Below, piece after piece: positions 10,506 through 28,663 of a DNA stretch of 64,000 nt (positions are counted from its first letter, which is position 1; every line of letters begins with the position of its first letter). The DNA is from Desulfarculia bacterium (GTDB lineage Bacteria; Desulfobacterota; Desulfarculia; Adiutricales; JAGVGV01): NCBI GenBank assembly GCA_963662445.1, contig OY759590.1, forward strand, positions 4,232,727 to 4,296,726. Direction: 5' to 3'. The translations under genes and the position numbers were made by a program. The notes under the pieces are model-generated. The model searched no databases and was not told the DNA's origin. It saw only the letters and a program-made list of their open reading frames with translations.

Positions 10506-10615
10506 TCGCCACAGGGGGGCCGGGCCAGTCCCGGCCCCGATATGAGTGTTACCGTGGTAACACTTTCGCCCCCCCCTCCTCGCCCCTTGAAACCAGCCCG
10601 AAAATTTTTCCAATT

Positions 10616-10634: not shown

Positions 10635-10640
10635 AAATCA

Positions 10641-10728: not shown

Positions 10729-10740
10729 GGAACCTCTTGG

Positions 10741-10865: not shown

Positions 10866-10879
10866 AAAGGGGGGAGAAC

Positions 10880-14800: not shown

Positions 14801-15131
14801 CGTCGTCGCTGTTGAAGGGCGTCTGGTGCGCCCAGCGGTTGCGCACGTCCCGTAATTCGCTGACCAACGAGCGTTCGGCGAATCCCAGCGTATTGCGGAA
14901 AACGGCATTCCATTGATCCCACATGATGGTCAGTAGGTTGTGGGTGTCCCAGTTGAGCTCCCCCGTCCTGGCCGACTTCACGCCGCCGCGATCCTCCCGG
15001 AGCGTCTGCGCCACAATCTCCTGCCATTGTTCTCCATGGACGGCCCGGAGTTCCCGTTCCACAAAGGGGCGCAACCCCCTATTGAGCAGTTCGAGCGCTT
15101 CTCCAACCCTACTGTGATTACTTTTCGCCAT
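11805..15131 (-). CDS. Swt1-like HEPN domain fused to a DUF499-type (BrxC/PglY-like) ATPase
   Basis: N-terminal LRDVRNRWAHQ (HEPN Rx4H). Walker A-like NFGGGKTHSML and Walker B LVLIDEWVAY. 1108 aa; last gene of the operon. Confidence 0.8.
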   Translation of the reverse strand: MAKSNHSRVGEALELLNRGLRPFVERELRAVHGEQWQEIVAQTLREDRGGVKSARTGELNWDTHNLLTIMWDQWNAVFRNTLGFAERSLVSELRDVRNRWAHQTPFNSDDAYRALDSIGRLLTAISAPEAKELEEQKMALLRVRFDEQRRGEMRKHAVAPTEGNPQSGLKPWREVVTPHRDVASGKYQQAEFAADLWQVYLGEAASEYQDPTEFFRRTFITEGLQKLLSNGVRRIGGQGGDPVVELQTNFGGGKTHSMLALFHLFSGTPTTELPGTEQVLKEAGCEVASTVNRAIVVGTKVSPGNPSTKDDGTVIRTIWGEIAWQLGGKTGYEMIRADDEKATNPGDKMKELFNKFSPCLVLIDEWVAYARQLHEGSVLPAGTFDTQFTFAQALSEAAKAAKNTLLVVSIPASDNEIGGEWGQRALSRLKNAIGRVESSWRPASPDEGFEIVRRRLFEPLHEKQAFVARDAVARAFVEMYGTQHSEFPSECREAEYERRIKLAYPIHPELFDRLYNDWSTLDKFQRTRGVLRLMAAVIHSLWERQDGNLLIMPATIPIDDSAVQFELTRYLDDQWTPVIAKDVDGEHSLPLRLDRDAPNLGRYSACRRVARTIYVGSAPTQRAANRGIDDRQVKLGCVQPGETVATFGDAIRRLTDRATYLYVDGSRYWYSTQPTVTRLAEDRANQLHEHDVMDEIVRRLRDEARSRGDFHRVHACLSSSDIPDEHEARLVVLGPEHPHSKGQADSTARKEAQAILDSRGSSPRSYKNTLVFLASDASRLKDLQTAIRQFMSWKSIWDEREQLNLDPFQSKQADTKRKNADDTANVRIPEAYQWLLVPNQPDPKGSPEWTETRLQGSDSLALRASKKLKSEEMLLVQMGGVRLRLELDRVPLWRGNDVLVKQLVEDFATYLYLPRLRDSDVLIAAIREGITLLTWQSETFAYAQSKDADGRYLGLVGGGSAAVQSEGGSIVVKPDVAAEQQRRDVEAAKAKAGNGSATVAETEQTGEQGQAAGAETTRGADTGTPPPPAPTYRRFHGSVQLDSLRVGRDASRIADEVIQHLSKYIGANVEVTLEIRAEMPDGATEKTIRDVTENCRTLRFDSFGFEEE

Positions 15132-15159: not shown

Positions 15160-18009
15160 CTAATCGAACAGTTCCCCATTTTCTTCACGCGGGCCGGCTT
15201 GGGCCAGTCTGGTCAGTTCCGGCCAGGCCAGCACGAGGCTGTTGTAGGCCAGGGCTTCATTGGCGCGTTTGCGGCGTTCGCAGATGCCGTAAAGCCGGTA
15301 GGCCAGTTCCCGGGCCGACTCCGCTTTGCCGCCCAATTTGGCCACCAGTTTCGCCGCCTCTGATTCGCCGCCAGTGTCCAAGACCCGGACTAAGTAATGG
15401 ACCATCTCCCACACGGTCGCACGTTTATCTGTTAAGGGGTCCCAATCCTTCTGCAATTCATCCACCCGCAGAAGACGTGTTTTGCCGCCCCCTGCTTTGA
15501 CGATACCGGCTTCGGAAAGGGCATTCAGGGCGGTGTTCTTTGCTTTGGATAACGTTTCCGCGTCACCGAACGGTCCATCGTTGAATCCGAACTGCTCGAA
15601 CCAAGCTACGGCCCAGGCGGTTTCCGGATCGAAATCGCCTTCCTGTTCGGCTAGCGTTTCGTCCAGGGTCTGGTTAATCATTTGCAGGGCCGTCCGCACG
15701 GTCATGGGCTTGTCATCGGCCTCCAGAATCCTGCTGTAACGGGAAAAAACTGCCATCCCCGGACCGATGCTCGCTTGAGCTAGGTCTACCGGAGCGATAT
15801 TTCCCTGCTGAAGGTGCCGCAGGGCCGGCGGCAGTTCCCGGCGCAGCGCGGCGAGGAACTCTTTCCTTGTAGCCATCGGCGCGCCAGCGGGGCGCGGCCG
15901 ACAGACAAGGATGATGCTGGAGGCAAGGATGTTTGTTCTTGCGGTGATTTTACCAGGTCTCTCGGTTCGCATTGGCCATGTTCCAGTCAAACTGAAACCT
16001 GCGGTTAAGACGGCATTGAGGAATGTTTCCCATCCAGTTGATGCAATGCCGGCTTCCTCCGATTCCGCCTGCTTGAATGCGTAATAAATGGTGACTGGAA
16101 ATAAGGGATGGGTGCGCACCGCGATTAGGGAGATCGCCTTGGTCATACCCGAGAGGAAGAATTCTTCCGCCTTATCCTTTGAACCGTGTCGATAGGTTGT
16201 CGCTACAAGTTCCTCTACTTTAGGAACAAGCAGTGTAGAAAACAAGTCGGGGAATATCGACTTTAAAGCTGGTCGCAACCATACATAAAAAAAATCGGAG
16301 AGATCGGCATAACCAATGTTGTCATAGTATGGAGGATCAGTTGAAACTATTACGTTTTTCGGTTCTGCTATCTGTGCAGCATCCGCCTGCATTCCATTTC
16401 CCCTACCACGGCTGGGAAACGATTTACATGCGCCTTCCACCCAAGATAGCATTGAAAGCCAAGCGCCTGTGGATTCGGAGAATGCATTGCATTCACAATA
16501 GTCCCAAACCATTGGGATGGCCTGACGGCCAAATGTTGAGCGGATGAATTCACCACCGGGCACCCATGTGCTGATGGAACTCCAATAGTCGCAACTACGA
16601 TCCACCGCAAACGCCAAATACACACTGATCGCCTCGGCGTAAGCGTGGAAGCCGGCCCCACCGTCCCGCAGAGGGCGGTGGTCATCGTTCGAAATGTCCA
16701 ACGTTCCCCCAATATCACGCCGAATCTGCACCCGCGCCTCGGCCACCAGATCGGAAAACGTCGTCAACGCCACCAACTGACGAGGGGTGAAAAGCGAACC
16801 CCAAGTTGTCAATCCGTACCCGTAACATGTTCCACCTGTTAGGCGCGATGGAACCTCTCCCTCAGGCTTCCATCCCGGCCTCGCTCGCATGATGATCCCT
16901 TCGTGTTCGTCGGTGGGCGGTAGATAAACACGTCCCCGGTCGCCCTCGCAAACGATGGCCATGAGCCGTGCACCCATACGTCCGGCCTGCGCCTCTGAAC
17001 GGATATAATCCGGCAACAGCGGGGACTGGGAGAGGAGGCAGCGGAAGTTAGCGCCGCGCCCGAGTTTCGTGCCGGCCTCTACGGCAGCCTTGTCTCGCGG
17101 TTTTCCGGTCCTGACTTCGAACCGGTAATTCAGGCCGTCAATCACCGGTTCCAGCCAAACCTCTTTGCCCGCCTTGGTTGAGAGCGAGAATGACGAGACC
17201 AACGGCACATTGCACCCCCGATAGGCCGGGTTCGAGCTTTCTACCGTCCGAGCCCAAAGCCAGGCGATAACGGTTAGTTCTCGTCCGACATAGGGCTTCA
17301 GATCGGGCCTGCCCTTGGCCATCTCTGCCGTTACTTTGGCTTTGGGGTAGAGATGCCCGATGCGCTTTTCCGCCTCGTCGCGCATCCATTTGCCGTAGTA
17401 GCGTACATCCTCGGCCAGCCCCGCCGCGCCACTCCAACCCCTATTGAAGAGCCTCTTATCCCGGCGCGCCTCGGGGTTCACCGGCGGCCGTCCGGCGAAC
17501 CGCGGTGGAATCTCGATCATGGCCTTGTTGATCATCACAGCGACGGGATTCAGGTCGCTGGCGTGAGCTTCCAGCCCCAAACGCTGAGCCTCCATGGGAA
17601 GGGCTCCACCACCTGCAAATGGATCGTGAAATGGCGGCAGATTCTCTGGGTCTTCGCCCGACCCCTTGCACCAGCGCGCCCAGGAACGCCTGATCTCGGC
17701 CCGCGCTCGGTCGAGCACTTCTTCATTGGTGGTGTTCTCCCAGAGCACCAGTTCTTCAATCAGTCGGAAGAGCCGTTTACGTTCCCTCTCCTGAGCTTCC
17801 GGTGTGGGAAACTCCTCAGGCACCGATCCAGGATCGTCCACCATCTGGGCGAAAATGACGGCCCGGGCCGCCGCCAGCGGCCGCCGCGCCCACCATAGAT
17901 GGAGCGTGGAAGGATGCCCATGTCGGATCGATTTCTCCCTGGCTGACGCATGATTGATGGCTTCCAGCGGCAGCGCCACTTCGATTAGCTTTTTACGAGC
18001 AGTATTCAT
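15160..18009 (-). CDS. DUF1156-type DNA methyltransferase (N6-A/N4-C class, DPPY)
   Basis: Start moved to MNTARKKLIEVALPLEAIN (ATG 18009, ATGA overlap with the upstream stop). Has HLWWARRP, motif I DPFAGGGALP and motif IV STDPPYYDNIGY. Confidence 0.85.
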   Translation of the reverse strand: MNTARKKLIEVALPLEAINHASAREKSIRHGHPSTLHLWWARRPLAAARAVIFAQMVDDPGSVPEEFPTPEAQERERKRLFRLIEELVLWENTTNEEVLDRARAEIRRSWARWCKGSGEDPENLPPFHDPFAGGGALPMEAQRLGLEAHASDLNPVAVMINKAMIEIPPRFAGRPPVNPEARRDKRLFNRGWSGAAGLAEDVRYYGKWMRDEAEKRIGHLYPKAKVTAEMAKGRPDLKPYVGRELTVIAWLWARTVESSNPAYRGCNVPLVSSFSLSTKAGKEVWLEPVIDGLNYRFEVRTGKPRDKAAVEAGTKLGRGANFRCLLSQSPLLPDYIRSEAQAGRMGARLMAIVCEGDRGRVYLPPTDEHEGIIMRARPGWKPEGEVPSRLTGGTCYGYGLTTWGSLFTPRQLVALTTFSDLVAEARVQIRRDIGGTLDISNDDHRPLRDGGAGFHAYAEAISVYLAFAVDRSCDYWSSISTWVPGGEFIRSTFGRQAIPMVWDYCECNAFSESTGAWLSMLSWVEGACKSFPSRGRGNGMQADAAQIAEPKNVIVSTDPPYYDNIGYADLSDFFYVWLRPALKSIFPDLFSTLLVPKVEELVATTYRHGSKDKAEEFFLSGMTKAISLIAVRTHPLFPVTIYYAFKQAESEEAGIASTGWETFLNAVLTAGFSLTGTWPMRTERPGKITARTNILASSIILVCRPRPAGAPMATRKEFLAALRRELPPALRHLQQGNIAPVDLAQASIGPGMAVFSRYSRILEADDKPMTVRTALQMINQTLDETLAEQEGDFDPETAWAVAWFEQFGFNDGPFGDAETLSKAKNTALNALSEAGIVKAGGGKTRLLRVDELQKDWDPLTDKRATVWEMVHYLVRVLDTGGESEAAKLVAKLGGKAESARELAYRLYGICERRKRANEALAYNSLVLAWPELTRLAQAGPREENGELFD

Positions 18010-18659
18010 TGGTCCAGTATCTTCCTTGACAGTGACGTGAATTGTCGCAATCTGTTTTGCGGATCGGGATTCAAGTAGTATATGATCGCCCATTCGATCA
18101 AAGCAGGTTCGGGATTGTCCCCAAGCGTGTCGATTAACTGCCGAGCATGGGTGCATCGCCTTCCGGTCAGGCGGGCGCATTTCAGACCCAGGTAACCGAT
18201 AGTATAATCTGCTTTCAGAGCGTCTTCTCCATCAATCCCATCCGCCGGTTGGACCGTGCCATTTGGCAGGTACTGAAACAGGCGCGCGGTGTCAGGATCA
18301 TGAGGCGGGCAAAACAGCGTTGGGTTATATCGATAACCGGGATTGTGATGCCTGTCGTCCTTGAACCGTCCGCAATGCTCAACAGCGCCGCCGTTACACG
18401 ATGATGCTAGGTTGGCGTAGGCGTAGATCGGGCCGGACGGCAGGCCATGACCTGGATTTCGCGGTGCCATGTGCTCGATGTGGCTGTCGTCGGCCGTGAT
18501 TTCGACTTCACAGTAACAACAGACATAGTGCTGTTCCTCGCGCAGGGAGTCGCCCACCTGCTGATGGCAGGTCGTGCTCATAAAAGCACCCCAGTCTTGC
18601 GCCTGCGGTTGTTGAGCAAGGCAGGCCGGCGGATTTGGATTGCGGGTGATCGTCCTCAT
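18006..18659 (-). CDS. ptuB: HNH endonuclease-like protein, Septu PtuB-like (TIGR02646-like)
   Basis: CCYCEVEITADDSHIEHMAPRN HNH motif, ~217 aa, directly downstream of and overlapping an AAA_15-type ATPase. Confidence 0.65.
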   Translation of the reverse strand: MRTITRNPNPPACLAQQPQAQDWGAFMSTTCHQQVGDSLREEQHYVCCYCEVEITADDSHIEHMAPRNPGHGLPSGPIYAYANLASSCNGGAVEHCGRFKDDRHHNPGYRYNPTLFCPPHDPDTARLFQYLPNGTVQPADGIDGEDALKADYTIGYLGLKCARLTGRRCTHARQLIDTLGDNPEPALIEWAIIYYLNPDPQNRLRQFTSLSRKILDQ

Positions 18660-20056
18660 ATGACCCCCAGTACCCTAAGTTGACTGATCCGCATGTCGGC
18701 TCGCAGAAGGTCCGGGTCGCTCCGGCCCAAAGCATTCTCGAGCGCGGCCCGCAGTTGGCGGCCGCGACCGGAGTCCTGCTGCCGCGACTCGACCAATGCA
18801 AGATACTCGTCGAGTAGTTGAACCGTTTCGATCTGCTGCGGCCTGGAATGAGCTGCGAATACCTCCTGTAGCACACGCGAGCTTTCAGCCCCGAAAGTGC
18901 CCACATCGGCTGGCATCTGCTCTATGGCATGGTCCGAGCCAAGCAGATGGATGTTTTCGCGTCGCACGGTGGTCAAAACCTCAGGGCTGTGGGTGGCGGC
19001 GATGATTTGCGTGTTCGGGAATGCCGCACGCAGATTCGGAATGACGGTCTGTTGCCACTTCGGATGTAGATGCAGCTCAATCTCGTCGATGAGCAGAATA
19101 CCAGGCGATTCAAGCGGATTCGGCCAATTCGGATGCGCCTGCGCTAATCGGCGGGCGAAGTCCAGAACAAGAGCCAGTAGATTGCGATAACCGTCGCTCA
19201 GTTGGATCAATTCAAGCGTCTCGTCCGCCCGCCCGATCCGGTCGAAAGCGACTTTCAGACTCGGCGGGTTATCGTCAAAATAGATTCGCTTCACGCCCTC
19301 AATCGTTTTCAGTAATGCGGCGCGAGCGGCCTTCAAGTCCTGGAATTGAAAGTCCGGATCACTTCGCACCTGCATTTTCTCGCGCAGTTCGGCGTTTTCC
19401 CTAAGGTAGAACCACTGGCACATAGCCTGGTAGTTGGCCCCCGCATCCAGGGCTTGGTGATAAGCACCTTGGCGGGAAAGTTCAAGTTCGAAGACATTAC
19501 CCATCTTCGGCATTTCGTTTAGACGCCTGCTTGCGCGGTAATAGGCAACTACTGGAAGCGGGATTAATGCGGAAGAGTCGCTTTTTCGAATTTCCTGCCA
19601 TAAGGAGGCGAAATACTGGTAGATCGAGGACAGATTTCCGGACTGGCTTGTTTCGTAGCTGAATTTGTCCGGAGGTAGATACTTGATGTGATCCGTCCAT
19701 TCCAAAAACGCCGTTTCACCCGTCGGTGTCTTGTTGGGGAAACCCAGAATTTCATAGAAATCTTTCGCCGCGGCCTTGAACTGGACAAAATCCTTTCTGC
19801 CTGCGGCAGCGCTTTCCGAACCGGGCGTGATGTGGATGTCGGAGGGCTGAAGGGTCACCTTCTGCCATCCGCGCTGACGCTTGCCGCTGCCACCATTAGC
19901 CGCGACAACATCGTAGAGGGCGGTGGCAATTGCATCCAGGATCGTGGTTTTCCCTGCGCCGTTTACACCTACCACGATATTAATGTCCGGGCGAAATTCG
20001 ATGGCAAACGACTCGAAGCAGCGAAAGTTGGTTATTTCGATCTTGGAGAGTTTCAT
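18656..20056 (-). CDS. ptuA: AAA_15/ABC-type ATPase, Septu PtuA-like
   Basis: MKLSKIEITNFRCF, Walker A GVNGAGKTTILDAI, LLIDEIELHLHPKWQ and ATHSP. AAGGAG RBS upstream. Confidence 0.65.
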   Translation of the reverse strand: MKLSKIEITNFRCFESFAIEFRPDINIVVGVNGAGKTTILDAIATALYDVVAANGGSGKRQRGWQKVTLQPSDIHITPGSESAAAGRKDFVQFKAAAKDFYEILGFPNKTPTGETAFLEWTDHIKYLPPDKFSYETSQSGNLSSIYQYFASLWQEIRKSDSSALIPLPVVAYYRASRRLNEMPKMGNVFELELSRQGAYHQALDAGANYQAMCQWFYLRENAELREKMQVRSDPDFQFQDLKAARAALLKTIEGVKRIYFDDNPPSLKVAFDRIGRADETLELIQLSDGYRNLLALVLDFARRLAQAHPNWPNPLESPGILLIDEIELHLHPKWQQTVIPNLRAAFPNTQIIAATHSPEVLTTVRRENIHLLGSDHAIEQMPADVGTFGAESSRVLQEVFAAHSRPQQIETVQLLDEYLALVESRQQDSGRGRQLRAALENALGRSDPDLLRADMRISQLRVLGVI

Positions 20057-20069
20057 AAATAAATCTCCT

Positions 20070-20705
20070 TCATGCCAATAGTCTCCTGATCCAGTTCACG
20101 AAGGCGGCTGCCTGTGGATGGTTGGGGTCGAGATACTTTTTCTTGAAAGTCTCGCCCATCCTCGTGCCCGGCTCCTCCTGCCAAGCCAGCCAGGTGTGAA
20201 CATGGGCCTTGACTAGATAGGTTTCCTTGAATCGCCTGTCCGCCTTGGGAATGCTGTTCACGTCGGCCTGGGCCTTCGGCCACAGCGTGTCACCCTCGGC
20301 AATCAGCTTGCCGACAAAATCCTCCAGCGCCCCAGCGCTCTTGTTGTCAGGCATCACCCAGATGCCGATTTTTTTGCCGTCGGTCGTTTCGATGACAGTA
20401 CCCCCAGTACTCGGTGCTGCTGGAACCGAGCGGCATCCGTGCTCGTCCAGTATTCTCGTCACGCGCGCCCATTGGCTGGCAACGTTTGTGTCGGCATCGA
20501 GGATTATTCCGAGGCTGCCGAGATCGGTCGCTTTCAATTCCTCGCTCAACGTGCCGATCAGGTTATCTATGCCTTCTTTGACCTTGTAGTCATTCTTCCC
20601 GAATTGGTCGCATAGAGGTTTACCTTCATGCTTGTGATTGAACAAGAGATTCCTCACGACATGCATATCATCAGGGCCTTCGAATAGGAGCCGGTTGACC
20701 ATCAT
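20070..20705 (-). CDS. Small Toprim-like protein (RloB/AbiLii, DUF4276/DUF3226 or AriB-like class), partner of the upstream ATPase
   Basis: LLFEGPDDMHVV (hydrophobic-EG-acidic) and GIILDADTN (DxD). 211 aa; ATGA overlap with the upstream gene. Confidence 0.45.
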   Translation of the reverse strand: MMVNRLLFEGPDDMHVVRNLLFNHKHEGKPLCDQFGKNDYKVKEGIDNLIGTLSEELKATDLGSLGIILDADTNVASQWARVTRILDEHGCRSVPAAPSTGGTVIETTDGKKIGIWVMPDNKSAGALEDFVGKLIAEGDTLWPKAQADVNSIPKADRRFKETYLVKAHVHTWLAWQEEPGTRMGETFKKKYLDPNHPQAAAFVNWIRRLLA

Positions 20706-21856
20706 CGGATTTCAATCGCCTCCTTCACGATGACCGCCAGCCTCTCCTCGTCGAAGATCTCGGCGCTGAACTCGCTGTTCTTTTTCTCGATCCGAACTGC
20801 AACGCCGTCCACGTCCGGGTCGCCTTTTGTACCCATCTGGAAGGCTTTCAGGCAGTCGTTGCTGTGCGTGGTGGCGAAGACCTGGACTTCAAGCCGCTTG
20901 GCAACCTTCACAACGAACTTCCAGACCTCTGGAAGCACCGACCAGTGAATGCCATTCTCGATTTCATCCATGAGCAGGATACCACCCTTCGCGCCCGCCA
21001 AGGCAATACCGAGCCCAAAGAGGCGATTCATGCCGTCGCCCATGGTCTTGATCGGGACCGGGCCTTCACGGTCCTTGACGCGCAGGCGAAGCGACGAGAC
21101 GCGCTCGTGGGGATGCAGAAGGGCGAAGTCTTCCGTCTCCGGCGCGATGATCCGCATCGCGTCAATGACATCCTTCTTGGCGTCAGTCAGGACAACCTTC
21201 TCCCAGAGGCTCTGCAACCCCGCATCGTCGAGGCCACCCGGACCGACATGAACGCACGGCGTTGCGAGATCACGATGGGACCGGGTCTGTAGATTCCAGC
21301 GGCGGCAGAGGTCGTCATAAGCCTCATCCAGACGCAGCACCCTCCGCATCGAGCCAAACTTTATTACAAGTGCCGGGATAGGGCCTTCGCCGTCCGTCGC
21401 CTCGGGCGGCCCGACCTCCACGTATTGCTGGTTAGGTTGCACGCCGCCGCCGTACCCGCTGCCGTCTCCGAATCCACCGGAGGCATCCATGTCACTGGTC
21501 TTGCGAAGCCAAGTGATAGACAGAGATAGGGCGCTGTCCGGCGCACCGACACGGCCGATCTGGATGGATTCCTTGATACGTTCAAGGGCCGGATGCCCAT
21601 GAAACAGGCTCCAAACCGTCGGATCGACGGTATTGCCGTGATGCACCTCGCCGGGCTCGTCCCGGCCGTCCAGAATCCACTGAATGGTCTGAGGCGAACC
21701 GAGGTTGGCATGCAGGCACAATGCTTCGATCAGCGTGGACTTGCCTACGTTGTTCTTACCCAGGAACAGATTGATGTGGCCGAGTTGGTCAATCTGGATG
21801 TAGTTGAACGCACGGAACTGGCGTATTTCGAGGCTGTCGAAGAGCGGTGTGGTCAT
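20702..21856 (-). CDS. AAA_21/ABC-type ATPase (RloA/AbiLi/AriA-like)
   Basis: Start moved to MTTPLFDSLEIRQFRAF (ATG 21856, ATGA overlap). Walker A GKNNVGKSTLIEAL, ILLMDEIENGIHWSV and ATTHSNDC. Confidence 0.6.
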   Translation of the reverse strand: MTTPLFDSLEIRQFRAFNYIQIDQLGHINLFLGKNNVGKSTLIEALCLHANLGSPQTIQWILDGRDEPGEVHHGNTVDPTVWSLFHGHPALERIKESIQIGRVGAPDSALSLSITWLRKTSDMDASGGFGDGSGYGGGVQPNQQYVEVGPPEATDGEGPIPALVIKFGSMRRVLRLDEAYDDLCRRWNLQTRSHRDLATPCVHVGPGGLDDAGLQSLWEKVVLTDAKKDVIDAMRIIAPETEDFALLHPHERVSSLRLRVKDREGPVPIKTMGDGMNRLFGLGIALAGAKGGILLMDEIENGIHWSVLPEVWKFVVKVAKRLEVQVFATTHSNDCLKAFQMGTKGDPDVDGVAVRIEKKNSEFSAEIFDEERLAVIVKEAIEIR

Positions 21857-24411
21857 CAGGTCGTCCTCCCCACAAATGCGGTTCGCCAATCCCGTAATGC
21901 CTCCAAGTCCGCTTTCAGTTCATCGGGCGTGGGAGGGGCAACCGGAGCTTCATTCGGCTGCGAGTGTTCATAGCGGGAATACTTAGTCATCATGTCGTCG
22001 AAAAACTTGCAGTCCGCTGCCGTGATGCGTGCCAGCTTGTCCAGCTTGCCCTGGGTATTCACTGCGCGCCGGAAGCGCTGAACAACATCCGCCAACAGTT
22101 CGCACTCGATCATGCGCTCGAGCAGAATCCGGAAATCGCTGCATATGGCTTTCGCAAGCGGCGCATAAGCGGTCTGGCCCCCTTCGTCATGTGCCTTTCG
22201 GGCCTTCGCCAAGTTCTCGTTCAGAAGAGCGTTGAGCGCCTTGTCCGGTTTCTTCGCAAATAGCGGTGTGTCGCCCGGTTCACCAGTGCCCCAAGGCTCG
22301 CATCTGACGCAGGTAACCTTGGGCTCGCGGCCTTCGCGCTTGCCGTACTCCTGAAGCAGGACCAGTAAAGACACGCGATGCGTGAATACGATCACCTGTC
22401 GATCCGAAGCCAGGCGCACCAGTCGTTGCACCACGGCCTCCTCGAAATCCTGGTCCAATGAAGAGATGGGATCGTCAAACACGAATGGTGCGGGTTGCAG
22501 CTTTCCCGTCACGTCCGCAAGGAAGGCCGCCAGGGACACAACCCGATGTTCGCCTTCGCTCAGCACATCACGCGGTGCACCGGATCGGGCTTTCGCCAAC
22601 CTCAGTTCGTGAAGAACCCGGCCATGTTCCACCCGCTTCTTGACCAGCTCCACCTTGACCCGTGAAGCCCCGAGGGCTGCCAGTTCGTCACGGAAGCGTT
22701 TCACGAACGCCTCCGTGATCAATGCCTCAGCGATCTCGCCTTTTTTGCGGGAAAGCCCGCGTGTGTCTGTCAGCCGCTTTGCCTTATCCAAGCGTTCAAC
22801 GGCCTGAAGCCTTTCGATCTCCACCTTGACGGCATCGCGCTGTTCGGAGAGCCACTTCCTCGCTTTGAGTTCGAGCAGTTGGCTCTGAAGTTGCGGCCGC
22901 GTATTAGACGCCGCGTCTTCCTGGCATTTCTTCGCATCATCGGCGTATACAGACGCCAGTTTCTTTGTCTCTTGCAGCCAGGCTGCGCAATCAGGGACCT
23001 GAGGCAACTCATCGACGGCCTCGACCTCCAACAGATTTTCCTTCCGCTGCCGAAGCGCATCTACGGATCTGACTATCGGAGGCATGGTCCCCTGGTAAGT
23101 CAATCCTCCTGCGTCGCATTGCGTCTTGATTGCCTTGCCGGTCGGGATGTCCCCGAGAGCGGTCATCGCATCTTCCAGGGCCTTCTCCGCCGCCTTCGCG
23201 TCATTCTCGGCCTGCCCTTTCACGAACTCCTCGAAGGATGCGAGGCGTTGCCGGGCATCATCTGACAAAGTTTGATGGCAGAGAACGCATCTGGCCTCCG
23301 CATCAAGATACGGGAATACTTGACCACGGTAGGCTTGGTCTTCAGAGTATCGCCGAGCGTGTTCCCACAGCAGTTTCCATGCGTCCGTTCCGATGCCATC
23401 CAAAGGAGCGCCGGAAAATACTTTGGTGGCCGCAGCCTGTGCGGCCTCACGCTTGATGAGCTTGTCCTTCTTGAGCTTCAGAATGCGGCGGCAGTTCTCA
23501 TCGGTGAGCTTTAGAAGATGGTCTTCAATCCCCTGGACCATTTCCTCCACATGCTTCTTCTTCGCAAGCAGCTCCCTGGCCCGGTCGGCAGGGGCCTTCT
23601 CGGCAAGACGCTTCTCCAAATCGGAAATGGTTCCATCGTCCACGGCGTCCCATTTCGTGTTTGATGCTACATCCTCAGGGGAAGTCATGGCGGTCAGAGA
23701 CAAGTACCATTTGCCAGCCGCTGTGTCGGCGTATTCCGAAGGCATCTGAGGCTTTTTCGATAAGCACCTTCCCAACTTGCCGTCAATTCGCCGCGCAACC
23801 AGTTCGCAAACAGCGATCAGATCGGAGAAGAACAGCAGTGCCGGTGGTTCATAGGTGACCTCGCTTTCGCTCTCCAAATACATGCGGCCACAATCGGCGT
23901 CGAAGATATCCACGGGACGAAGGTCAGCCTGAACCCCGTCGCCGGTGCTCCAGGACACCTGGCGTTCCTGATTATCGATGCTGTACTTGATCTCTGCGGA
24001 CTGTGTAGTCCCGTCGTCCGCAAAAACGTTCGGATGGAGCGCGCCAGGATTGCGCGCACCACAGACGTGCTTCAGGATGCGGACATAGCCGGACTTACCG
24101 GAGCCGTTGCCGCCGTAGACGACGGCCATGTTGTCCAGTCCAAAGTCCAGGGGGCTCCGAGGCGCGAGCGCGTTGATGCCATTTACGTTGCCGATAGTGC
24201 ACAAGCGCAATGCGGACGCACTTTGGGCAAGGAAAGCGTCTGCGGGGAAGGAAGCTCTATTTGCCGGGTCTCCTGAATCAACCTCCTGCAGGCACCTGTC
24301 GAGGAGGGCAACAATGTCCTCCTCTGTAAGACGACCTTTCGTAAGGAGAAGGCTGGCGGCTTCCTGCATCCACCTCGGTCGATCTTTGAACCAAGCGTTG
24401 AGGTCATTCAT
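21856..24411 (-). CDS. AAA_13-family ABC ATPase, PrrC/RloC-like
   Basis: Start moved to MNDLNAWF (ATG 24411, AAGGAG RBS, 8-nt overlap). Walker A YGGNGSGKSGYV, coiled-coil middle, LSEGEHRVVSLAAFLA and FVFDDPISSLD. The C-terminus has FRILLERMIE ... KYSRYEHSQ. Confidence 0.65.
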   Translation of the reverse strand: MNDLNAWFKDRPRWMQEAASLLLTKGRLTEEDIVALLDRCLQEVDSGDPANRASFPADAFLAQSASALRLCTIGNVNGINALAPRSPLDFGLDNMAVVYGGNGSGKSGYVRILKHVCGARNPGALHPNVFADDGTTQSAEIKYSIDNQERQVSWSTGDGVQADLRPVDIFDADCGRMYLESESEVTYEPPALLFFSDLIAVCELVARRIDGKLGRCLSKKPQMPSEYADTAAGKWYLSLTAMTSPEDVASNTKWDAVDDGTISDLEKRLAEKAPADRARELLAKKKHVEEMVQGIEDHLLKLTDENCRRILKLKKDKLIKREAAQAAATKVFSGAPLDGIGTDAWKLLWEHARRYSEDQAYRGQVFPYLDAEARCVLCHQTLSDDARQRLASFEEFVKGQAENDAKAAEKALEDAMTALGDIPTGKAIKTQCDAGGLTYQGTMPPIVRSVDALRQRKENLLEVEAVDELPQVPDCAAWLQETKKLASVYADDAKKCQEDAASNTRPQLQSQLLELKARKWLSEQRDAVKVEIERLQAVERLDKAKRLTDTRGLSRKKGEIAEALITEAFVKRFRDELAALGASRVKVELVKKRVEHGRVLHELRLAKARSGAPRDVLSEGEHRVVSLAAFLADVTGKLQPAPFVFDDPISSLDQDFEEAVVQRLVRLASDRQVIVFTHRVSLLVLLQEYGKREGREPKVTCVRCEPWGTGEPGDTPLFAKKPDKALNALLNENLAKARKAHDEGGQTAYAPLAKAICSDFRILLERMIECELLADVVQRFRRAVNTQGKLDKLARITAADCKFFDDMMTKYSRYEHSQPNEAPVAPPTPDELKADLEALRDWRTAFVGRTT

Positions 24412-27400
24412 CGGACTTCTCCTTCGCTCGGTCATGCTCATACACCAGCCGGTACTTCGCCGGGTACAGCGTCAGTTCGCCGCCGTCGCACATCTCGCGG
24501 AGGCGGCGGCCGGTGATCTCCAGCGGGGTATCGTCGGCGTCGACCAGCAGAAGCGTGTACTTGTCGGGGTGCTGATCGCAGAGTTTCCAGACATCCGCGT
24601 CGAGCTGGAGCGAGTCGCGCTGAATGCAGTGCTCTTTGTCCCAGTAGCACTGAAGCAGCTCGCCGCCGGCTGAGCGACGCTCCCATGGGAAGCTGTGGCC
24701 TCCGGAGACCTTTTCGATCCAACTGCCGTCGGTGTGATAGAAGCGGTCCGAGCCGTCCTTGGCGTAGCCGTTGGCCTTGGCAAAACGTTCCATCAGGCTC
24801 GGGGTGGCTGGCTTGAACTGATTGCGGCGTGCGGGCTCGCGTTTGTCTTCTTCGTCTAATTTGTCATCGTCCTGGTCTTCGTCGAGGTCACCGTCCTCGA
24901 ATGCCTCATCGACGTCCGGTTCGTCGGCGAACTCTGTGTCATGGTCGTCGCCCTCCGTCTGCCGGGTTGCATCGGCGTCTGTCTGGTCGGCTGATGTGGC
25001 TTCTTCGTCATTGGTGAGTTCGCCCTGCTCCCCAGTTTTGTCGGCCTGCTTGCTCGTGCCGCGGATCGGGCCGACTTGCTCTCTTGGCAGGAGCGTGAAA
25101 TTCTCCTCGAGGTACTCCAACACGAACTCCGGCGGACGGTCGTAGCAGAGCTTGATGGCGTCGGTGATCTCCGGCTTATTGAAGACGCGGCCGAGTTCCT
25201 GGGCGACCGCCTTGGCCATCTTCGCGGCGGAGCGGTCCTCGACGTAGAGCAGAGAGTCTTTCCAAAGCACGTCAATTCGGCGAGGCGTACCGGCGGGCGT
25301 GCCGTCGATGTACGGGACGGTCTGAAGCCCTGAGGCAACCTGCCAGCCGGTCCCGGTCAGACGGTCGGCCAGCTCGCGGACCCGTCGGGTTTCGTCCTGG
25401 TCGTCAAGGGCGATGCGGCGCAGGCCAGCGCCAAGTGCGTTCAGCCAGGGCATCTTCTGCGGGTCGGGCAGGCCGTAGAGTTGATCTTCGAACCGGTCTT
25501 CTAAGCTCTGGGCCAATGGCCGTAGCGCGGAGAATGGGTGCTGTTCCCACACGTCAGCCGAGAGCTTTTGGAGGTCAGCGGTCTTCTGCTTGATCGGCTT
25601 GAAAAGGTGCTTCCAGGCCACGAGCGACTGCATCGTCAGCGAGTAGACGAGATCTCCGGTGGGTGTCCACTCTCCTTCTATGTTCAGCCAATGGCCGCAC
25701 TCTCTCCAGATACGCTCGGGGTAGCGAGGCAGCAACGAACGCACGCGCCGTACTTCGTCGGCCGTGAGGCCCTGGCCGGACGCAAGGCCGGCGAGCCACT
25801 TGATGGATAGGTCGGCCGTGGGACGATCCGCGACGCCGACCTTGTGCCAAAGCGTGAGGGGCCGTACTGAGGGATGAACCAGGGCTGCATCGGGCACGTC
25901 TTCCTCATCCGCCGCGAGGAACACTTCGGCGGCAGTGCCCCAACCGTTGCCTTCGGTGAGGATGATCTTTTCGTCTGCAAAGGCATCCTTGACCTCCTCG
26001 AACTCGTCGGTCGAGCACTTGTTAACCAACTGGTCGAGGCGGTGGTACCACTTCTCCACCTCGTAGACCGGAGGATTATCCACCGTGGCCAGTGCACGGA
26101 GTCGATCCAACAAGCGGTCAGGTCCGGTCGGCGTGTCTCGGACGCCGAGCATGATCAACAACGGACGCGTGGCTTCGGTGTCGAACGCGGCCCGGACGAA
26201 GGGCTCAACGTCCAGCAGAGGTTCGGTGGCCGGCGTGCGGCAAAGCAGTTTTGCGGGCTGCCGATAATGGCCCCGTGTGTCCTGCAGACAAGGCAAATCG
26301 CTAAACTTGATGACCCAAGACGGCAACAGTTCTTCATGTGTTACTAATTGCTTATATTTATTGCCGTTCTGCCATACCTTTGCCGAGAGCGATTTTGCCC
26401 AGTATTCCTTTGATTGGGCCAGGACACGTGCAAAAATACGCCCCCAGACTTCTGTGTCTTGTTCGGCAGATTCCTGCCAAAAACGCCAGTGGTCCTCGTC
26501 AAAATCCCAATCTTCGATTGTAAAATTCCCGCTTTTGTAAGGAAAATGAGGAGCACCTTTAATCCCTCGTTCTTCCAGTAACTTCACAATCTTATTGCGG
26601 TTCCATTCCCAACGCTCAGATTGAACCAAAGGCACAAAGGTCAGAAGTCCGCTTCGCCCCGATGCCACCCATTGCCGCCAGTCTTCTCCGGTGCAAGACA
26701 AAAGAACACGATAGTCCTCGTGTAGAACGTGGCTTTCGTACCATTGATCGGGAACGAATGCTTCAAGGTCATTGTGTGTATCGTAAACAATACGTTCGCT
26801 GACTGGCCTGCGATAACCATCACGGGTTACGAACTGAAAGCTCTCCGCTACCGAAGCTCCCAAAGTTGCAGCCAGTTGTACCAACCGAATGCAGTCTTCT
26901 ATATCGCATTCTTGCTCACTGAAAAACTTCTCAGCGGCTTGCTGGATCACCTGACTCACGTCGCTGGCCTGTCCAAGGCTCACAGCGTCGAAGACCTTGT
27001 AGGCGAATTCAACTTGCCGCCCAAGATCATCGTCCTTGTCCTGCTCGGCCCTTCGGCGCTGTTCAGCCAGGAATCGCGGCCAGTTCTGATTGAGCACAAG
27101 CAGGCACGCCGCCAGGAACTCCCAATCCTCCTGAGACTGGAGCAGTTTCTTCTCTCCCAGGCGCACGATTTCGTTGGCGGCATACAGAACATCCTTGCCG
27201 TGGACCGGAAGTATGCGAACAGCCTTATGATTTCGATTGTAGTGACAACCGACAACATCTTCCGCGACGTAGGTCCACAGCAGCAGGAGCTGCGCCCAGG
27301 AATCCGGTTTTGGCAGGTGCTTCGATTTGAGTGTGGTCAGCACATCGTCCTTGCTGATTTGGTCTATGCTGTTCCAGTTGAACAGCTTCTTTCGGTTCTC

Positions 27401-28663
27401 GGCTGATATGTGATGAGAGAGAATCGGTCGGGCGCTGTCGGTGAACTGACGAGAGACGAGATCGTTCGGCCATACGTCGAGGAGAACCCGAGGCACGGCA
27501 ACACAGCCTTTTTCCTTTGCCAACGACCCGTCTTCCAGCAGAAGGAATGGCTTGCCTGCCAGTGCTGATTCGCATGCCTCTTCTGCGATCCGTCCGCAGT
27601 CACCTTCCAGCGAATGGTCATCGCGATCAAGATCAGGTAGCAGCGCGTAAGCATCGCATCGTTTCTCAACTCCCGCGTCCGCCGTTCCAACCCAATGAAG
27701 CAGAGTCTCCGCTGCCAATCTGCCTACACGATCCAGGAGCCAACGATTTGTCGGCGACGTCTCCGGGTCCTTGATTTTCACGCGGGCAGGGTCTTGAATG
27801 AACGGTGCGTTGCAAGCAAACGGAAGTTTGGTCAGCACTCCTGTGGGAAGAATGACAAAAAGGCGGCCTTCCATGCCGAGAACTAGATCGACGCTGCAAG
27901 GAGGTAAGGCTGTTTCCTCGTCAACCGTGACCATGCGTTCCTGACGGATTTCGTCTAGGGCTTCGGCTGGAAACGGCTCTGGATCGGACTGGATCAGCAG
28001 TACCCATTGGTCTGGTGTTCCTGCCAATGAGAACCAACTCGATCCGAGTACAGGCCCAGCAGCTTCTGACTCCCAACGGATTTCGCGGCCGCCGATGTTC
28101 AAACAACGGATGGAACGAAAGAAAAGCAACGATGTCGGACTCTTCGTCCAGTCATCAAGGTTCTTCTTCAGTTCTCGCTGGCGGTGTGGGTCCTGAATCG
28201 TAACACGAACTTCTGTGTGACGGGCCGGGACTCCGTTCCGGGCCATCCATAGGGGCTCGGTGAAACGGCTACGCCGGAAGGCCACCGATAGTGAAGGAGT
28301 CCTGAGCCGAACCTCATCCCCAAGGCTGAATGTGCTCTTGAAGCCGATCCCTCGGAATCCAATGGTGTGAAGGGATCGCTTGTTGGAATACCCGAACCGG
28401 CAAAGGGAGATGAAGTGCTCCTCGGTAAAGTCCTCGCCATTGTGAATGAATATGAACTCCCCATCTTGGATGTCCGCCGAAGCCATGGTTGCGCCCGCAT
28501 CGTCCGCATTTTGCAGAAGCTCGGAAACGACATGACGAGGGCTTTGCACCTGCTTGAACAACTGGTGCCAAGGTCCGGCCAATACAGGGTCCTGTTCAAG
28601 CTGAACCCAACGCCTGGCAGCAGTTGCCCGGACATCCTCGAAATAAGGAGGCGCATCCGTCAT
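24404..28663 (-). CDS. Giant sacsin/NOV-type GHKL (HATPase_c_3-like) ATPase; remainder of the protein is of unknown function
   Basis: N-box SELLQNADDAGA and G2-like TIGFRGIGFKSTF. ~900 aa unassigned, then a ~60-aa D/E tract (DNA ~24835-25015) and an unassigned C-terminal domain. Confidence 0.7.
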   Translation of the reverse strand: MTDAPPYFEDVRATAARRWVQLEQDPVLAGPWHQLFKQVQSPRHVVSELLQNADDAGATMASADIQDGEFIFIHNGEDFTEEHFISLCRFGYSNKRSLHTIGFRGIGFKSTFSLGDEVRLRTPSLSVAFRRSRFTEPLWMARNGVPARHTEVRVTIQDPHRQRELKKNLDDWTKSPTSLLFFRSIRCLNIGGREIRWESEAAGPVLGSSWFSLAGTPDQWVLLIQSDPEPFPAEALDEIRQERMVTVDEETALPPCSVDLVLGMEGRLFVILPTGVLTKLPFACNAPFIQDPARVKIKDPETSPTNRWLLDRVGRLAAETLLHWVGTADAGVEKRCDAYALLPDLDRDDHSLEGDCGRIAEEACESALAGKPFLLLEDGSLAKEKGCVAVPRVLLDVWPNDLVSRQFTDSARPILSHHISAENRKKLFNWNSIDQISKDDVLTTLKSKHLPKPDSWAQLLLLWTYVAEDVVGCHYNRNHKAVRILPVHGKDVLYAANEIVRLGEKKLLQSQEDWEFLAACLLVLNQNWPRFLAEQRRRAEQDKDDDLGRQVEFAYKVFDAVSLGQASDVSQVIQQAAEKFFSEQECDIEDCIRLVQLAATLGASVAESFQFVTRDGYRRPVSERIVYDTHNDLEAFVPDQWYESHVLHEDYRVLLSCTGEDWRQWVASGRSGLLTFVPLVQSERWEWNRNKIVKLLEERGIKGAPHFPYKSGNFTIEDWDFDEDHWRFWQESAEQDTEVWGRIFARVLAQSKEYWAKSLSAKVWQNGNKYKQLVTHEELLPSWVIKFSDLPCLQDTRGHYRQPAKLLCRTPATEPLLDVEPFVRAAFDTEATRPLLIMLGVRDTPTGPDRLLDRLRALATVDNPPVYEVEKWYHRLDQLVNKCSTDEFEEVKDAFADEKIILTEGNGWGTAAEVFLAADEEDVPDAALVHPSVRPLTLWHKVGVADRPTADLSIKWLAGLASGQGLTADEVRRVRSLLPRYPERIWRECGHWLNIEGEWTPTGDLVYSLTMQSLVAWKHLFKPIKQKTADLQKLSADVWEQHPFSALRPLAQSLEDRFEDQLYGLPDPQKMPWLNALGAGLRRIALDDQDETRRVRELADRLTGTGWQVASGLQTVPYIDGTPAGTPRRIDVLWKDSLLYVEDRSAAKMAKAVAQELGRVFNKPEITDAIKLCYDRPPEFVLEYLEENFTLLPREQVGPIRGTSKQADKTGEQGELTNDEEATSADQTDADATRQTEGDDHDTEFADEPDVDEAFEDGDLDEDQDDDKLDEEDKREPARRNQFKPATPSLMERFAKANGYAKDGSDRFYHTDGSWIEKVSGGHSFPWERRSAGGELLQCYWDKEHCIQRDSLQLDADVWKLCDQHPDKYTLLLVDADDTPLEITGRRLREMCDGGELTLYPAKYRLVYEHDRAKEKSDE

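What the first reader, a model, noticed from the sequence alone, without database searches (positions are those of the whole stretch)
21856..24411. PrrC/RloC-like AAA_13 ATPase embedded in the methylase operon
The 851-aa protein has a Walker A (YGGNGSGKSGYV), a long coiled-coil insert, an ABC signature-like LSEGEHRVV and a Walker B FVFDDPISSLD. This is the layout of the AAA_13 family that includes the anticodon nucleases PrrC and RloC. The last ~100 aa contain FRILLERMIE and KYSRYEHSQ. These are reminiscent of, but not verifiably equal to, the Arg/Glu/His ACNase region. PrrC is famously silenced by, and embedded in, a type I R-M locus; the context here is analogous but with a different R-M class. 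If the C-terminus is a nuclease, this would be an RNA-targeting abortive arm guarding the methylase system.
Basis: partly seen in the sequence, partly recalled or inferred. Interest (0 to 1): 0.55.

Follow-up and report, generated by a model that had tools for sequence, protein, structure and literature searches.

The report
RloC-like defence ATPase inside Hma operon
This gene encodes a large Rad50-like ATPase built like the bacterial anti-phage tRNA nuclease RloC but with a divergent, untested tail domain; it is one of four separate defence modules nested inside a helicase-methylase-ATPase (Hma) immune operon.

Summary
Window 21856-24411 (minus strand) is an intact 851-aa gene with a good ribosome-binding site. 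It has a Walker A, a ~390-aa coiled-coil insert with an invariant CxxC, LSEGE, FVFDDPISSLD and an H-loop. It passes Pfam AAA_13 and matches PADLOC candidate PDC-S06 (model PDLC04893) end to end at 1068 bits.

The "methylase operon" is an Hma system. Four guest modules lie between hmaA and hmaB: a TmtA-like ATPase, this gene, PDC-M38A/B and Septu.

The PrrC/RloC reading is partly supported.
- **Layout:** size, ATPase motifs and zinc-hook coiled coil match RloC.
- **Triad-like residues:** R761-x3-E765-x50-H816 fits the published RloC pattern. These residues are invariant in 93 distant representatives and 78 genome copies.
- **Tail domain is not recognisably ACNase or HEPN:** Pfam AAA_13 stops at the ATPase, Foldseek finds nothing, and there is no Rx4-6H motif.
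- **Profile comparison:** similarity to genuine RloC tails is weak though specific (P~0.002), and the triads do not align in register.

Relatives recur in the prrC slot of type I R-M, after brxL in BREX, in Hma, or alone. That pattern fits a self-contained sensor-effector better than a partner silenced by Hma.

Most likely it is a divergent RloC-type abortive-infection RNase. No experiment supports this yet. Interest is moderate.

The parts
21856..24411 (-). Target gene: 851-aa RloC-like ABC ATPase (PADLOC PDC-S06, model PDLC04893). Stop codon TGA at 21856-21858.
24217..24411 (-). N-terminal three-helix extension (residues 1-65). It is absent from canonical RloC, whose Walker A lies near residue 33. 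Function unknown.
24091..24114 (-). Walker A GGNGSGKS (residues 100-107). G105 and K106 are invariant.
22672..23844 (-). Helical coiled-coil insert (about residues 190-580) that splits the ABC head.
23278..23289 (-). CVLC (residues 375-378). A CxxC zinc-hook-like motif at mid-insert, invariant in 93/93 and 78/78 sequences. It is positioned as in canonical RloC.
22549..22563 (-). ABC signature LSEGE (residues 617-621).
22453..22485 (-). Walker B and D-loop FVFDDPISSLD (residues 643-653). The DDPISSLD part is shared with canonical RloC.
22378..22380 (-). H-loop His678, invariant.
21859..22266 (-). C-terminal all-helical domain (residues 716-851), the presumed effector. Invariant residues: R761 (22129-22131), E765 (22117-22119), E769 (22105-22107), R779 (22075-22077), D800 (22012-22014), S812 (21976-21978) and H816 (21964-21966).
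28660..32169 (-). hmaA (SNF2 helicase plus NOV_C), the first gene of the host Hma system.
24404..28663 (-). Guest 1: a 1419-aa GHKL/sacsin-type ATPase. Only its N-terminal region matches PADLOC TmtA. Its stop overlaps the target's start.
20070..21856 (-). Guest 3: PDC-M38A (AbiLi-like AAA_21 ATPase; ATG at 21856 overlaps the target's stop as TGATG) and PDC-M38B (DUF3226, 20070-20705).
18006..20056 (-). Guest 4: Septu, made of PtuA (18656-20056) and the PtuB HNH nuclease (18006-18659).
15160..18009 (-). hmaB (DUF1156 adenine methylase). The likely start is M58 of the longest ORF, overlapping the PtuB stop as ATGA.
11805..15131 (-). hmaC (DUF499 ATPase), here with an extra N-terminal Swt1-like HEPN domain.

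Best explanation
The gene encodes a self-contained, single-polypeptide anti-phage sensor-effector of the RloC type. It is a guest module inside an Hma operon, not a subunit of Hma.

Shown:
- It has a complete SMC/Rad50-like ABC ATPase head, split by a coiled coil that carries an invariant CxxC.
- It has a 136-residue all-helical C-terminal domain with seven invariant polar residues.
- It belongs to a large, horizontally mobile family found in bacteria and archaea.
- That family sits alone, in the prrC slot of type I R-M, behind BREX, or inside Hma.

Inferred by analogy with G. kaustophilus RloC (PMC2610378, PMC3458546):
- The ATPase and zinc-hook region is an internal switch that keeps the effector off. 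It turns the effector on when it meets a DNA signal of infection or of failing restriction, such as DNA ends or anti-restriction activity.
- The C-terminal domain is then the toxic effector. Most likely it is a metal-independent RNase, distantly related to the RloC/PrrC anticodon-nuclease domain, that uses the R761/E765/E769 helix face and S812/H816. It would stop translation and abort the infection.

In this window the gene is co-transcribed and translationally coupled with Hma and the other guests, so it is expressed together with them as a further layer of defence.
For: **Architecture and motifs**
- establish the head, the coiled coil and the conserved motifs.
- The order Walker A, ~275 aa, CxxC, ~240 aa, LSEGE, DDPISSLD, H-loop, tail matches canonical RloC-family proteins.
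- Those reference proteins are genuine RloC: full-length Pfam AAA_13 at 492 bits, JGI name 'wobble nucleotide-excising tRNase', and NCBI 'RloC protein [Campylobacter coli]' in the same profile search.

**Defence classification**
- PADLOC PDC-S06 matches at 1068 bits. The same PADLOC family also holds the canonical RloC-like proteins.

**C-terminal domain**
- R761-x3-E765-x50-H816 fits the published 'Arg-X3-Glu-X36-52-His'. The residues are invariant.
- Profile-profile comparison against 52 diverse RloC tails gives score 24.7, P=0.002 and 73 colinear columns. None of 100 column shuffles reached that score, and 16 helical control windows from the coiled coil scored only 9-11.
- The tail occurs almost only in this ~850-aa architecture: 1369 clusters at 50% identity carry it.

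**Self-sufficiency**
- Stand-alone copies next to IS elements, toxin-antitoxin genes or glmS have no neighbouring nuclease. An effector must therefore be in the polypeptide, and the tail is the only candidate.

**Context**
- 27 of 80 genome loci have type I, BREX, type III-like or Hma within 10 kb.
- Guests are common in Hma: 62.7% of Hma systems carry embedded genes (bioRxiv 10.1101/2024.01.29.577857).
Against: - No experiment exists for this clade. PDC-S06 is an untested candidate.
- The tail has no Pfam hit. AAA_13 covers only profile positions 254-582 of 713, whereas genuine RloC is covered to position 712.
- There is no PADLOC PrrC hit, while canonical RloC scores 48-53 bits on that model.
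- Foldseek on the tail model (pLDDT 78) finds nothing below E=0.3. HEPN toxins appear only among generic helical bundles at probability 0.25-0.47. Nothing is found in BFVD or by a PDB sequence profile.
- With shallow alignments the profile similarity disappears (P=0.35). Even with deep alignments the hhalign probability is only 13.5%.
- In that alignment RloC's Arg pairs with E765, its Glu with E769, and its Ser-His with S812-R813, and R813 is variable. The proposed triad is therefore not in register.
- There is no Rx4-6H. Position -6 from H816 is Lys in 73/93 sequences and Arg in 5/93, and position -3 is variable.
- Twenty of 65 relatives carry a dedicated SbcCD-like nuclease pair directly downstream. 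That could mean the protein needs a partner effector.
Confidence: 0.5

Rival explanations
1. Sensor or adaptor only. The C-terminal domain is a regulatory or docking domain, not a nuclease. The protein senses DNA and activates an effector encoded elsewhere: the SbcCD-like pair in many relatives, the PDC-M38B or PtuB nucleases here, or the host R-M, BREX or Hma system.
For: - 20 of 65 relatives have SbcD-like and SbcC-like genes about 23 nt downstream on the same strand.
- In the window and in L019 and L022, the gene is directly followed by PDC-M38A/B with overlapping stop and start.
- The tail shows no recognisable nuclease fold.
- The catalytic residues are not in register with RloC.
Against: - The tail's seven invariant residues are identical in SbcCD-linked, Hma-embedded and stand-alone copies.
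- Stand-alone copies have no partner gene.
- L020 has Hma without M38A/B.
- PDC-M38A/B and Septu are complete systems in their own right.
Confidence: 0.22
2. DNA-directed effector. Like Lamassu, Wadjet or Rad50-Mre11, the protein recognises phage or plasmid DNA through its SMC-like head and coiled coil. The C-terminal domain acts on DNA by nicking, binding or blocking replication, rather than on tRNA or other RNA.
For: - The best structural matches are SMC, Rad50 and RecN.
- There are weak PADLOC hits to LmuB, DndD and PbeC.
- Relatives are linked to SbcCD-like genes.
- The tail has a basic loop, R779-x-R781-R782.
Against: - The tail lacks the acidic metal-binding cluster typical of DNases. 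Its invariant Arg, Glu, Ser and His set is more typical of metal-independent RNases (inference).
- Its only above-background similarity is to RloC ACNase tails.
Confidence: 0.13
3. PrrC-style guard. The protein is held inactive by physical association with the Hma methylase/ATPase complex and fires only when a phage inhibits Hma.
For: - It is co-transcribed and translationally coupled inside Hma.
- The same placement is seen in Syntrophorhabdus (L019, 90% identity), Magnetococcales (L022) and L020.
- Relatives occupy the prrC slot in type I R-M (L038 and L054).
Against: - The host systems are unrelated to each other (type I, BREX, type III-like, Hma), and many copies have no host system at all. 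A specific protein-protein silencer is therefore unlikely.
- It has the zinc-hook and ATPase that act as an internal switch in RloC (PMC3458546).
- 62.7% of Hma systems carry unrelated guests.
Confidence: 0.1

Closest known systems
RloC (wobble-nucleotide-excising anticodon nuclease; G. kaustophilus, C. jejuni; COG4694; full-length Pfam AAA_13)
   Same: - One polypeptide of 658-897 aa.
- Walker A, LSxGE, DDPISSLD and an H-loop.
- A coiled-coil insert with a central C-x-[FL]-C-x-[QN] motif at the same relative position.
- A ~140-200-aa helical tail after the ATPase head.
- An Arg-x3-Glu...His pattern within the published spacing.
- Lateral mobility, and only occasional linkage to R-M systems.
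- Grouped with it under PADLOC PDC-S06.
   Different: - An extra 65-aa N-terminal domain.
- The tail is not matched by the AAA_13 profile, and there is no PrrC-model hit.
- Profile similarity of the tails is only P~0.002, with the Arg, Glu and His out of register.
- It has 'S-x3-H' instead of 'S-H'.
- It has additional invariant residues E769, R779, T786 and D800.
- JGI does not name it RloC.
PrrC (E. coli anticodon nuclease in the EcoprrI type Ic R-M locus)
   Same: - An ABC ATPase of the AAA_13 type followed by a C-terminal effector domain.
- Some relatives lie between hsdS and hsdR, exactly like prrC (L038, L054).
   Different: - PrrC is 341-416 aa and has no coiled coil or zinc hook.
- It is always linked to type I R-M and is silenced by it.
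- This protein is 851 aa, lies in Hma, and does not hit the PADLOC PrrC model.
PADLOC PDC-S06 (phage defence candidate, single gene 06)
   Same: Full-length match to sub-model PDLC04893 (1068 bits). It also matches PDLC04891 and PDLC04888.
   Different: PDC-S06 is a computational, untested grouping of 13 HMMs. It mixes canonical RloC-like proteins (PDLC04887 and others) with this divergent-tail clade.
HEPN RNase superfamily (Anantharaman et al. 2013, PMC3710099)
   Same: - A small all-alpha domain fused C-terminally to an ABC ATPase.
- Embedded in R-M-type loci.
- An invariant His with nearby Arg and Glu.
   Different: - No Rx4-6H motif.
- No significant sequence or structure match to any HEPN entry.
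Defence genes embedded in Hma (Payne et al., bioRxiv 10.1101/2024.01.29.577857)
   Same: The gene lies between hma genes, on the same strand, alongside Septu, which is the classic Hma guest.
   Different: This family was not among the nine HEC candidates tested there. In this window four guest modules, not one, lie between hmaA and hmaB.

Membership tests
RloC | ABC ATPase motifs: Walker A, LSxGE signature, Walker B/D-loop DDPISSLD and H-loop | tested here: met
   All are present and invariant in 93/93 and 78/78 relatives.
RloC | Coiled-coil insert with a central CX2C zinc hook splitting the ATPase head; size 658-897 aa | tested here: met
   The AF2 model has helices across residues 190-580. 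C375 and C378 are invariant. Spacing matches the canonical proteins L006-L012. Length is 851 aa (definition).
RloC | C-terminal Arg-X3-Glu-X36-52-His catalytic triad homologous to PrrC R320/E324/H356 | tested here: inconclusive
   The pattern R761-x3-E765-x50-H816 is present and invariant. As a bare pattern it arises in 14% of shuffles. In hhalign the RloC triad aligns to E765, E769 and R813, not to R761, E765 and H816.
RloC | Full-length match to Pfam AAA_13, including the ACNase part (profile positions ~583-713) | tested here: not met
   The match covers only profile positions 254-582. The tail alone gives no AAA_13 hit at E<=10. Canonical proteins match positions 5-712 at 492 bits.
RloC | tRNA anticodon-loop cleavage with wobble-base excision; ACNase activated by DNA-dependent ATPase | not testable with these tools
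   This requires biochemistry.
PrrC | Short (341-416 aa) ABC ATPase without a coiled coil, plus an ACNase domain | tested here: not met
   The protein is 851 aa with a coiled coil. There is no PADLOC PrrC hit at E<=0.01.
PrrC | Gene embedded in a type I R-M locus that silences it | tested here: not met
   Here the host locus is Hma. Some relatives are in type I loci (L038, L054). Silencing itself was not testable.
HEPN superfamily | Rx4-6H motif at the start of the last core helix | tested here: not met
   Relative to H816, position -6 is K 73, E 11, R 5 of 93. Position -3 is R 30, K 16, C 12 and others. There is no invariant Arg at -5 to -7.
HEPN superfamily | Four-helix HEPN fold | tested here: inconclusive
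   The model is all-helical (pLDDT 78). HEPN toxins 1wol, 7ae6, 7bxo, 6m6w and 8yuf appear only at E>1, probability 0.11-0.47, TM 0.27-0.39, among generic helical bundles.
PADLOC PDC-S06 | Full-length HMM match to a PDC-S06 model | tested here: met
   PDLC04893 scores 1067.8 bits, with residues 11-859 of the 861-aa ORF matched to profile positions 5-859 of 862.
Hma-embedded guest gene | Located between hma genes on the same strand | tested here: met
   HmaA scores 1754 bits, HmaB 1422 bits and HmaC 1142 bits, and they flank the gene. All are on the minus strand with overlapping stop and start codons.

The most novel reading that the evidence does not exclude
This clade is not simply a diverged RloC. 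Its tail would be a new effector domain with its own active site: R761/E765/E769 on one helix face, the R779-x-RR...T786 loop, D800, and S812-x3-H816. The family would form a distinct, widespread back-up arm for methylation-based immunity (type I R-M, BREX, Hma). In about a third of genomes it would operate as an unnamed three-gene module with dedicated SbcD-like and SbcC-like proteins, coupling DNA-end processing to an RNA- or translation-directed suicide response.
Probability: 0.2. Interest if true: 0.65.

Novelty: new variant of a known kind. Interest (0 to 1): 0.4.

Why it matters
If the tail is an RNase, this would be a second large branch of RloC-type anticodon or RNA nucleases. At least 1369 clusters at 50% identity carry the tail, across bacteria and archaea. 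The active site would be remodelled compared with RloC.

It would also extend the PrrC principle, an RNA-directed suicide arm backing up a DNA-modification system, from type I R-M to BREX and Hma.

It would give a function to one of the most common untested PADLOC candidates. It would also offer clean mutational targets: K106, C375/C378, R761, E765, E769 and H816.

For this window alone the finding is less notable. It is one more guest in an Hma operon, which is a known pattern.

Tried and rejected
1. **Pfam and NCBIfam on the tail alone.** No family matched.
2. **PDB by sequence.** The whole protein hit only SMC and AriA signature and Walker B stretches. The tail profile hit nothing.
3. **Foldseek.** The full model hit SMC and Rad50 heads only. 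The tail model gave no significant hit against PDB or BFVD.
4. **hhalign with shallow alignments.** P=0.016 with the His residues not aligned, and P=0.35. Only deeper alignments gave P~0.002. I therefore call tail homology to RloC likely but unproven.
5. **Exact-sequence look-up of the window protein.** It is not on record, so the source genome was not identified. The closest genome copy is Syntrophorhabdus aromaticivorans at 90% identity.
6. **PrrC membership.** Rejected on size, on the lack of a coiled-coil-free architecture, and on no HMM hit.
7. **Obligate three-gene cassette with PDC-M38A/B.** Rejected. L020 and all stand-alone copies lack M38A/B.
8. **Obligate pairing with the TmtA-like ATPase.** Rejected. 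It is seen only in the closest relatives (L019, L020, L028) and is absent in L022.
9. **A Cys/His metal site in the tail (C757, C801, H816).** Not pursued. The cysteines are only ~90% conserved.
10. **Model coordinates.** They were not available, so I could not measure whether the invariant residues cluster.

**Caveat on method.** The bait used to fish out canonical RloC proteins was a sequence written from memory. It was used only as a probe. All conclusions rest on the real plasmid and database proteins it retrieved, which were validated by Pfam, JGI and NCBI names.

Full report
**1. The object**

On the minus strand, the longest ORF runs 21856-24441 (861 aa). That start is preceded by AAGGAG at a 7-nt spacing and overlaps the stop of the upstream gene as ATGAATGA. 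Most full-length homologues are 849-861 aa, and many are exactly 851. I therefore take 21856-24411 as the gene.

Its TGA overlaps the ATG of the next gene as TGATG. The gene lies inside one tightly packed, translationally coupled operon.

**2. Family assignment of the ATPase part**

- Pfam gives AAA_13 at 53.5 bits (cut-off 36) and SMC_N at 46.5 bits (cut-off 40). AAA_13 matches only profile positions 254-582 of 713. That covers the region from the CxxC to the end of the ATPase head.
- PADLOC gives a full-length match to PDC-S06 model PDLC04893 (1067.8 bits). Weaker full-length matches go to PDLC04891 and PDLC04888.
- AlphaFold2 with 44 homologues (pLDDT 81.5) predicts an ABC head interrupted by long helices at about residues 190-580, followed by an all-helical tail.
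- Foldseek against the PDB returns SMC, cohesin, condensin, Rad50 and RecN heads with coiled coil, and also retron PtuA-type ATPases.
- The PDB sequence search finds only the signature and Walker B stretch of SMC and AriA.

**3. Conservation**

The first homologue search returned 437 proteins. The 120 listed are 51-100% identical and come from Planctomycetota, Acidobacteriota, Gammaproteobacteria, Magnetococcales, Methanosarcinales archaea and others.

A profile of the last 159 residues, searched against 1.84 billion cluster representatives, found 1369 proteins at E<=0.001. The top 150 place the domain at about residues 695-855 of ~850-aa proteins, apart from shorter sequences that look like fragments. 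The tail is therefore essentially tied to this architecture.

In 93 representatives at 32-53% identity to the window protein, the following residues are invariant:
- G105 and K106
- C375 and C378
- S618 and G620
- D646, D647 and D653
- H678
- In the tail: R761, E765, E769, R779, D800, S812 and H816

T786 is present in 91 of 93. The same holds in all 78 full-length copies from a scan of one genome per species. In that scan 446 stretches encoded a relative, and the best 80 were kept.

**4. What the "methylase operon" is**

PADLOC identifies:
- HmaA (28660-32169, 1754 bits)
- HmaB (15160-18009, 1422 bits)
- HmaC (11805-15131, 1142 bits)

This is an Hma helicase-methylase-ATPase system.

Between hmaA and hmaB lie four guest modules, all on the same strand:
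- a 1419-aa GHKL/sacsin-type ATPase with a TmtA-like N-terminus (24404-28663)
- the target gene
- PDC-M38A/B, an AbiLi-like ATPase plus DUF3226 (20070-21856)
- Septu PtuA/PtuB (18006-20056)

Payne et al. reported that 62.7% of Hma systems carry embedded genes and that Septu is the commonest guest. The arrangement here is a rich example of a known pattern.

The flanks carry a phage tail protein, DnaB and an SLT transglycosylase on one side. On the other side are a replication-relaxation protein, a Cdc6-like ATPase and a caspase-domain protein. No tRNA gene is present in the window. The flank genes suggest a mobile element.

**5. Is it RloC-like?**

I obtained genuine RloC-family proteins as follows.
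- A probe sequence written from memory was run by tblastn against plasmids.
- The real proteins recovered (L006-L012) match Pfam AAA_13 over positions 5-712 at 492-494 bits.
- They hit the PADLOC PrrC model at 48-53 bits, and they are themselves PADLOC PDC-S06 under model PDLC04887.
- Their close homologues are named 'wobble nucleotide-excising tRNase' by JGI.
- A profile search also pulls in 'RloC protein [Campylobacter coli]'.

Compared with these, the window protein has the same order and spacing of elements. Walker A is followed by CxxC about 275 aa later (about 220-255 in RloC). LSEGE follows about 240 aa after that (about 230-250 in RloC). Then come DDPISSLD, the H-loop and the tail. The window protein has an extra 65-residue N-terminal helical domain.

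Davidov and Kaufmann defined RloC by four features: the ABC motifs, a coiled coil with a CX2C hook, a size of 658-897 aa, and a C-proximal Arg-X3-Glu-X36-52-His. The window protein has R761-x3-E765-x50-H816.

**6. The tail domain: the critical test**

Negative results:
- The tail has no Pfam hit, not even AAA_13, at E<=10.
- The protein has no PADLOC PrrC hit.
- The PDB sequence-profile search finds nothing.
- Foldseek on a tail-only model (pLDDT 78, three to four helices) finds nothing below E=0.3. HEPN toxins appear only among generic helical bundles. BFVD gives nothing.
- There is no Rx4-6H motif.
- The bare R-x3-E...H pattern is expected by chance in 14% of shuffles and occurs four times in this protein.

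Positive results:
- The tail alignment (93 sequences) was compared by hhalign with a tail-only alignment of 52 diverse RloC sequences. This gave score 24.7, P=0.002, probability 13.5% and 73 colinear columns. The columns run from the R/E helix through the His loop and the Pro-rich loop to the last helix.
- None of 100 column-shuffled profiles reached that score (mean 12.4, maximum 22.7). The reversed profile scored 9.1.
- Sixteen helical control windows taken from the family's own coiled coil scored 9-11.
- When the H-loop is included as an anchor, the alignment extends over 152-166 columns at 51-61% probability.

In these alignments RloC's catalytic Arg falls on E765 and its Glu on E769. Its Ser-His falls on S812-R813. 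H816 lies three residues further on, and R761 one helical turn earlier.

With shallow alignments the signal vanishes.

My reading is that the tail is probably a distant, colinear relative of the RloC ACNase domain with a remodelled constellation of polar residues. This is not proven, and RNase activity is an inference.

**7. Context across genomes**

Examples from contig look-ups:
- Stand-alone between IS elements and toxin-antitoxin genes (L001)
- Next to glmS and brnTA (L003)
- Among ordinary genes (L014)
- After an HTH gene near IS110 (L015)
- After a type I R-M (L004)
- Inside an archaeal type I R-M (L018)
- After a type III-like R-M (L016)

In the 80 genome loci, I ran tblastn with reference proteins, clustered the neighbours de novo and checked them with PADLOC. 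The counts are:
- Hma in 3 loci. L019 (Syntrophorhabdus aromaticivorans, 90% identity) has the same order hmaA, TmtA-like, target, M38A/B, hmaB, hmaC. L022 lacks the TmtA-like gene. L020 lacks M38A/B.
- Type I R-M in 10 loci. In L038 and L054 the gene lies between hsdM/S and hsdR, which is the prrC slot.
- BREX in 9 loci. In 8 of these the gene starts about 23 nt after brxL.
- Type III-like in 5 loci.

In total 27 of 80 loci have such a system. Among the 42 loci with at least 5 kb of flank on both sides, 14 do. These are lower bounds, because only homologues of my query proteins were detected.

Separately, 20 of 65 loci with enough downstream sequence carry SbcD-like and SbcC-like genes. In the 19 loci where the SbcD-like ORF was clustered, it starts about 23 nt after the gene (median).

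The tail's invariant residues are the same in every context class.

**8. Mechanism**

Shown: architecture, motif conservation, mobility and recurrent association with modification-based immunity.

Established for RloC: zinc-hook mutations activate its ACNase, and its ATPase is DNA-dependent and switches the ACNase on. This internal switch explains why rloC spreads without an external silencer (PMC3458546; PMC2610378).

Inferred for this protein:
- The same internal-switch logic applies.
- The tail is the effector, because stand-alone copies have no other candidate.
- The effector is most likely a metal-independent RNase.

I put about 0.5 on this composite explanation. The rivals are:
- An adaptor that drives a separate nuclease (0.22). 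This is favoured by the SbcCD linkage.
- A DNA-directed effector (0.13).
- PrrC-style silencing by Hma (0.10). This is disfavoured by the diversity of host systems and by the stand-alone copies.

**9. Novelty and verdict**

The gene belongs to a catalogued but untested PADLOC candidate family. I found no functional study of PDC-S06. Being nested in Hma is a described phenomenon.

What is not described is that this sub-family differs from characterised RloC in its tail. Its systematic placement in the prrC slot, behind BREX and in Hma, and its SbcCD-like companions, are also undescribed.

I rate it a new variant of a known kind, with interest 0.4.

Noticed in passing
window 11805-15131 (-), residues 12-126 of HmaC: HmaC carries an N-terminal Swt1-like HEPN domain (Pfam PF18731, 138 bits). 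It lies outside the PADLOC HmaC model, whose match begins at residue 169. The host Hma system therefore has its own predicted RNase domain.
   Followed up: no
L032 12559-13797 and 13809-17060; likewise L033, L036, L037, L045, L050-L052, L056-L058, L066, L073, L076, L078, L079, L084, L098: Relatives of the target at 42-53% identity are followed, about 23 nt downstream on the same strand, by an SbcD-like (412 aa) and an SbcC-like (1084 aa) gene. This holds in 20 of 65 genome loci across many phyla. The SbcD-like protein has no PADLOC model. This may be an unnamed three-gene defence module.
   Followed up: partly
L037 1811-9978 (PglX, PglZ, BrxL); L038 and L054 (hsdM ... target ... hsdR): The family recurs directly after brxL of BREX (9 loci) and between hsdS and hsdR of type I R-M, which is the classical prrC position (10 loci with type I genes).
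   Followed up: partly
window 24404-28663 (-): A 1419-aa GHKL/sacsin-type ATPase. Only the first ~330 residues match PADLOC TmtA (Tiamat) and NCBIfam P_loop_sacsin. The remaining ~1100 residues have no family match. It is conserved upstream of the target in L019, L020 and L028.
   Followed up: no
window 18006-21856 (-): Two further complete guest systems lie in the same operon: PDC-M38A/B (AbiLi-like ATPase plus DUF3226) and Septu (PtuA plus the PtuB HNH nuclease). Every junction is an overlapping stop and start (ATGA or TGATG).
   Followed up: partly
window 37952-44429 (-): A Cdc6/ORC-like AAA ATPase (37952-39238), an esterase/S9 peptidase (40209-41435) and a 950-aa caspase-domain (Peptidase_C14) protein (41577-44429) lie a few kb from the Hma island. 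They could be another defence or cell-death module.
   Followed up: no
window 2813-11623 and 32479-33465: A phage minor tail protein, a DnaB helicase, an SLT transglycosylase and a replication-relaxation protein flank the island. This suggests it lies within or beside a mobile element. No tRNA gene is present in the window.
   Followed up: no
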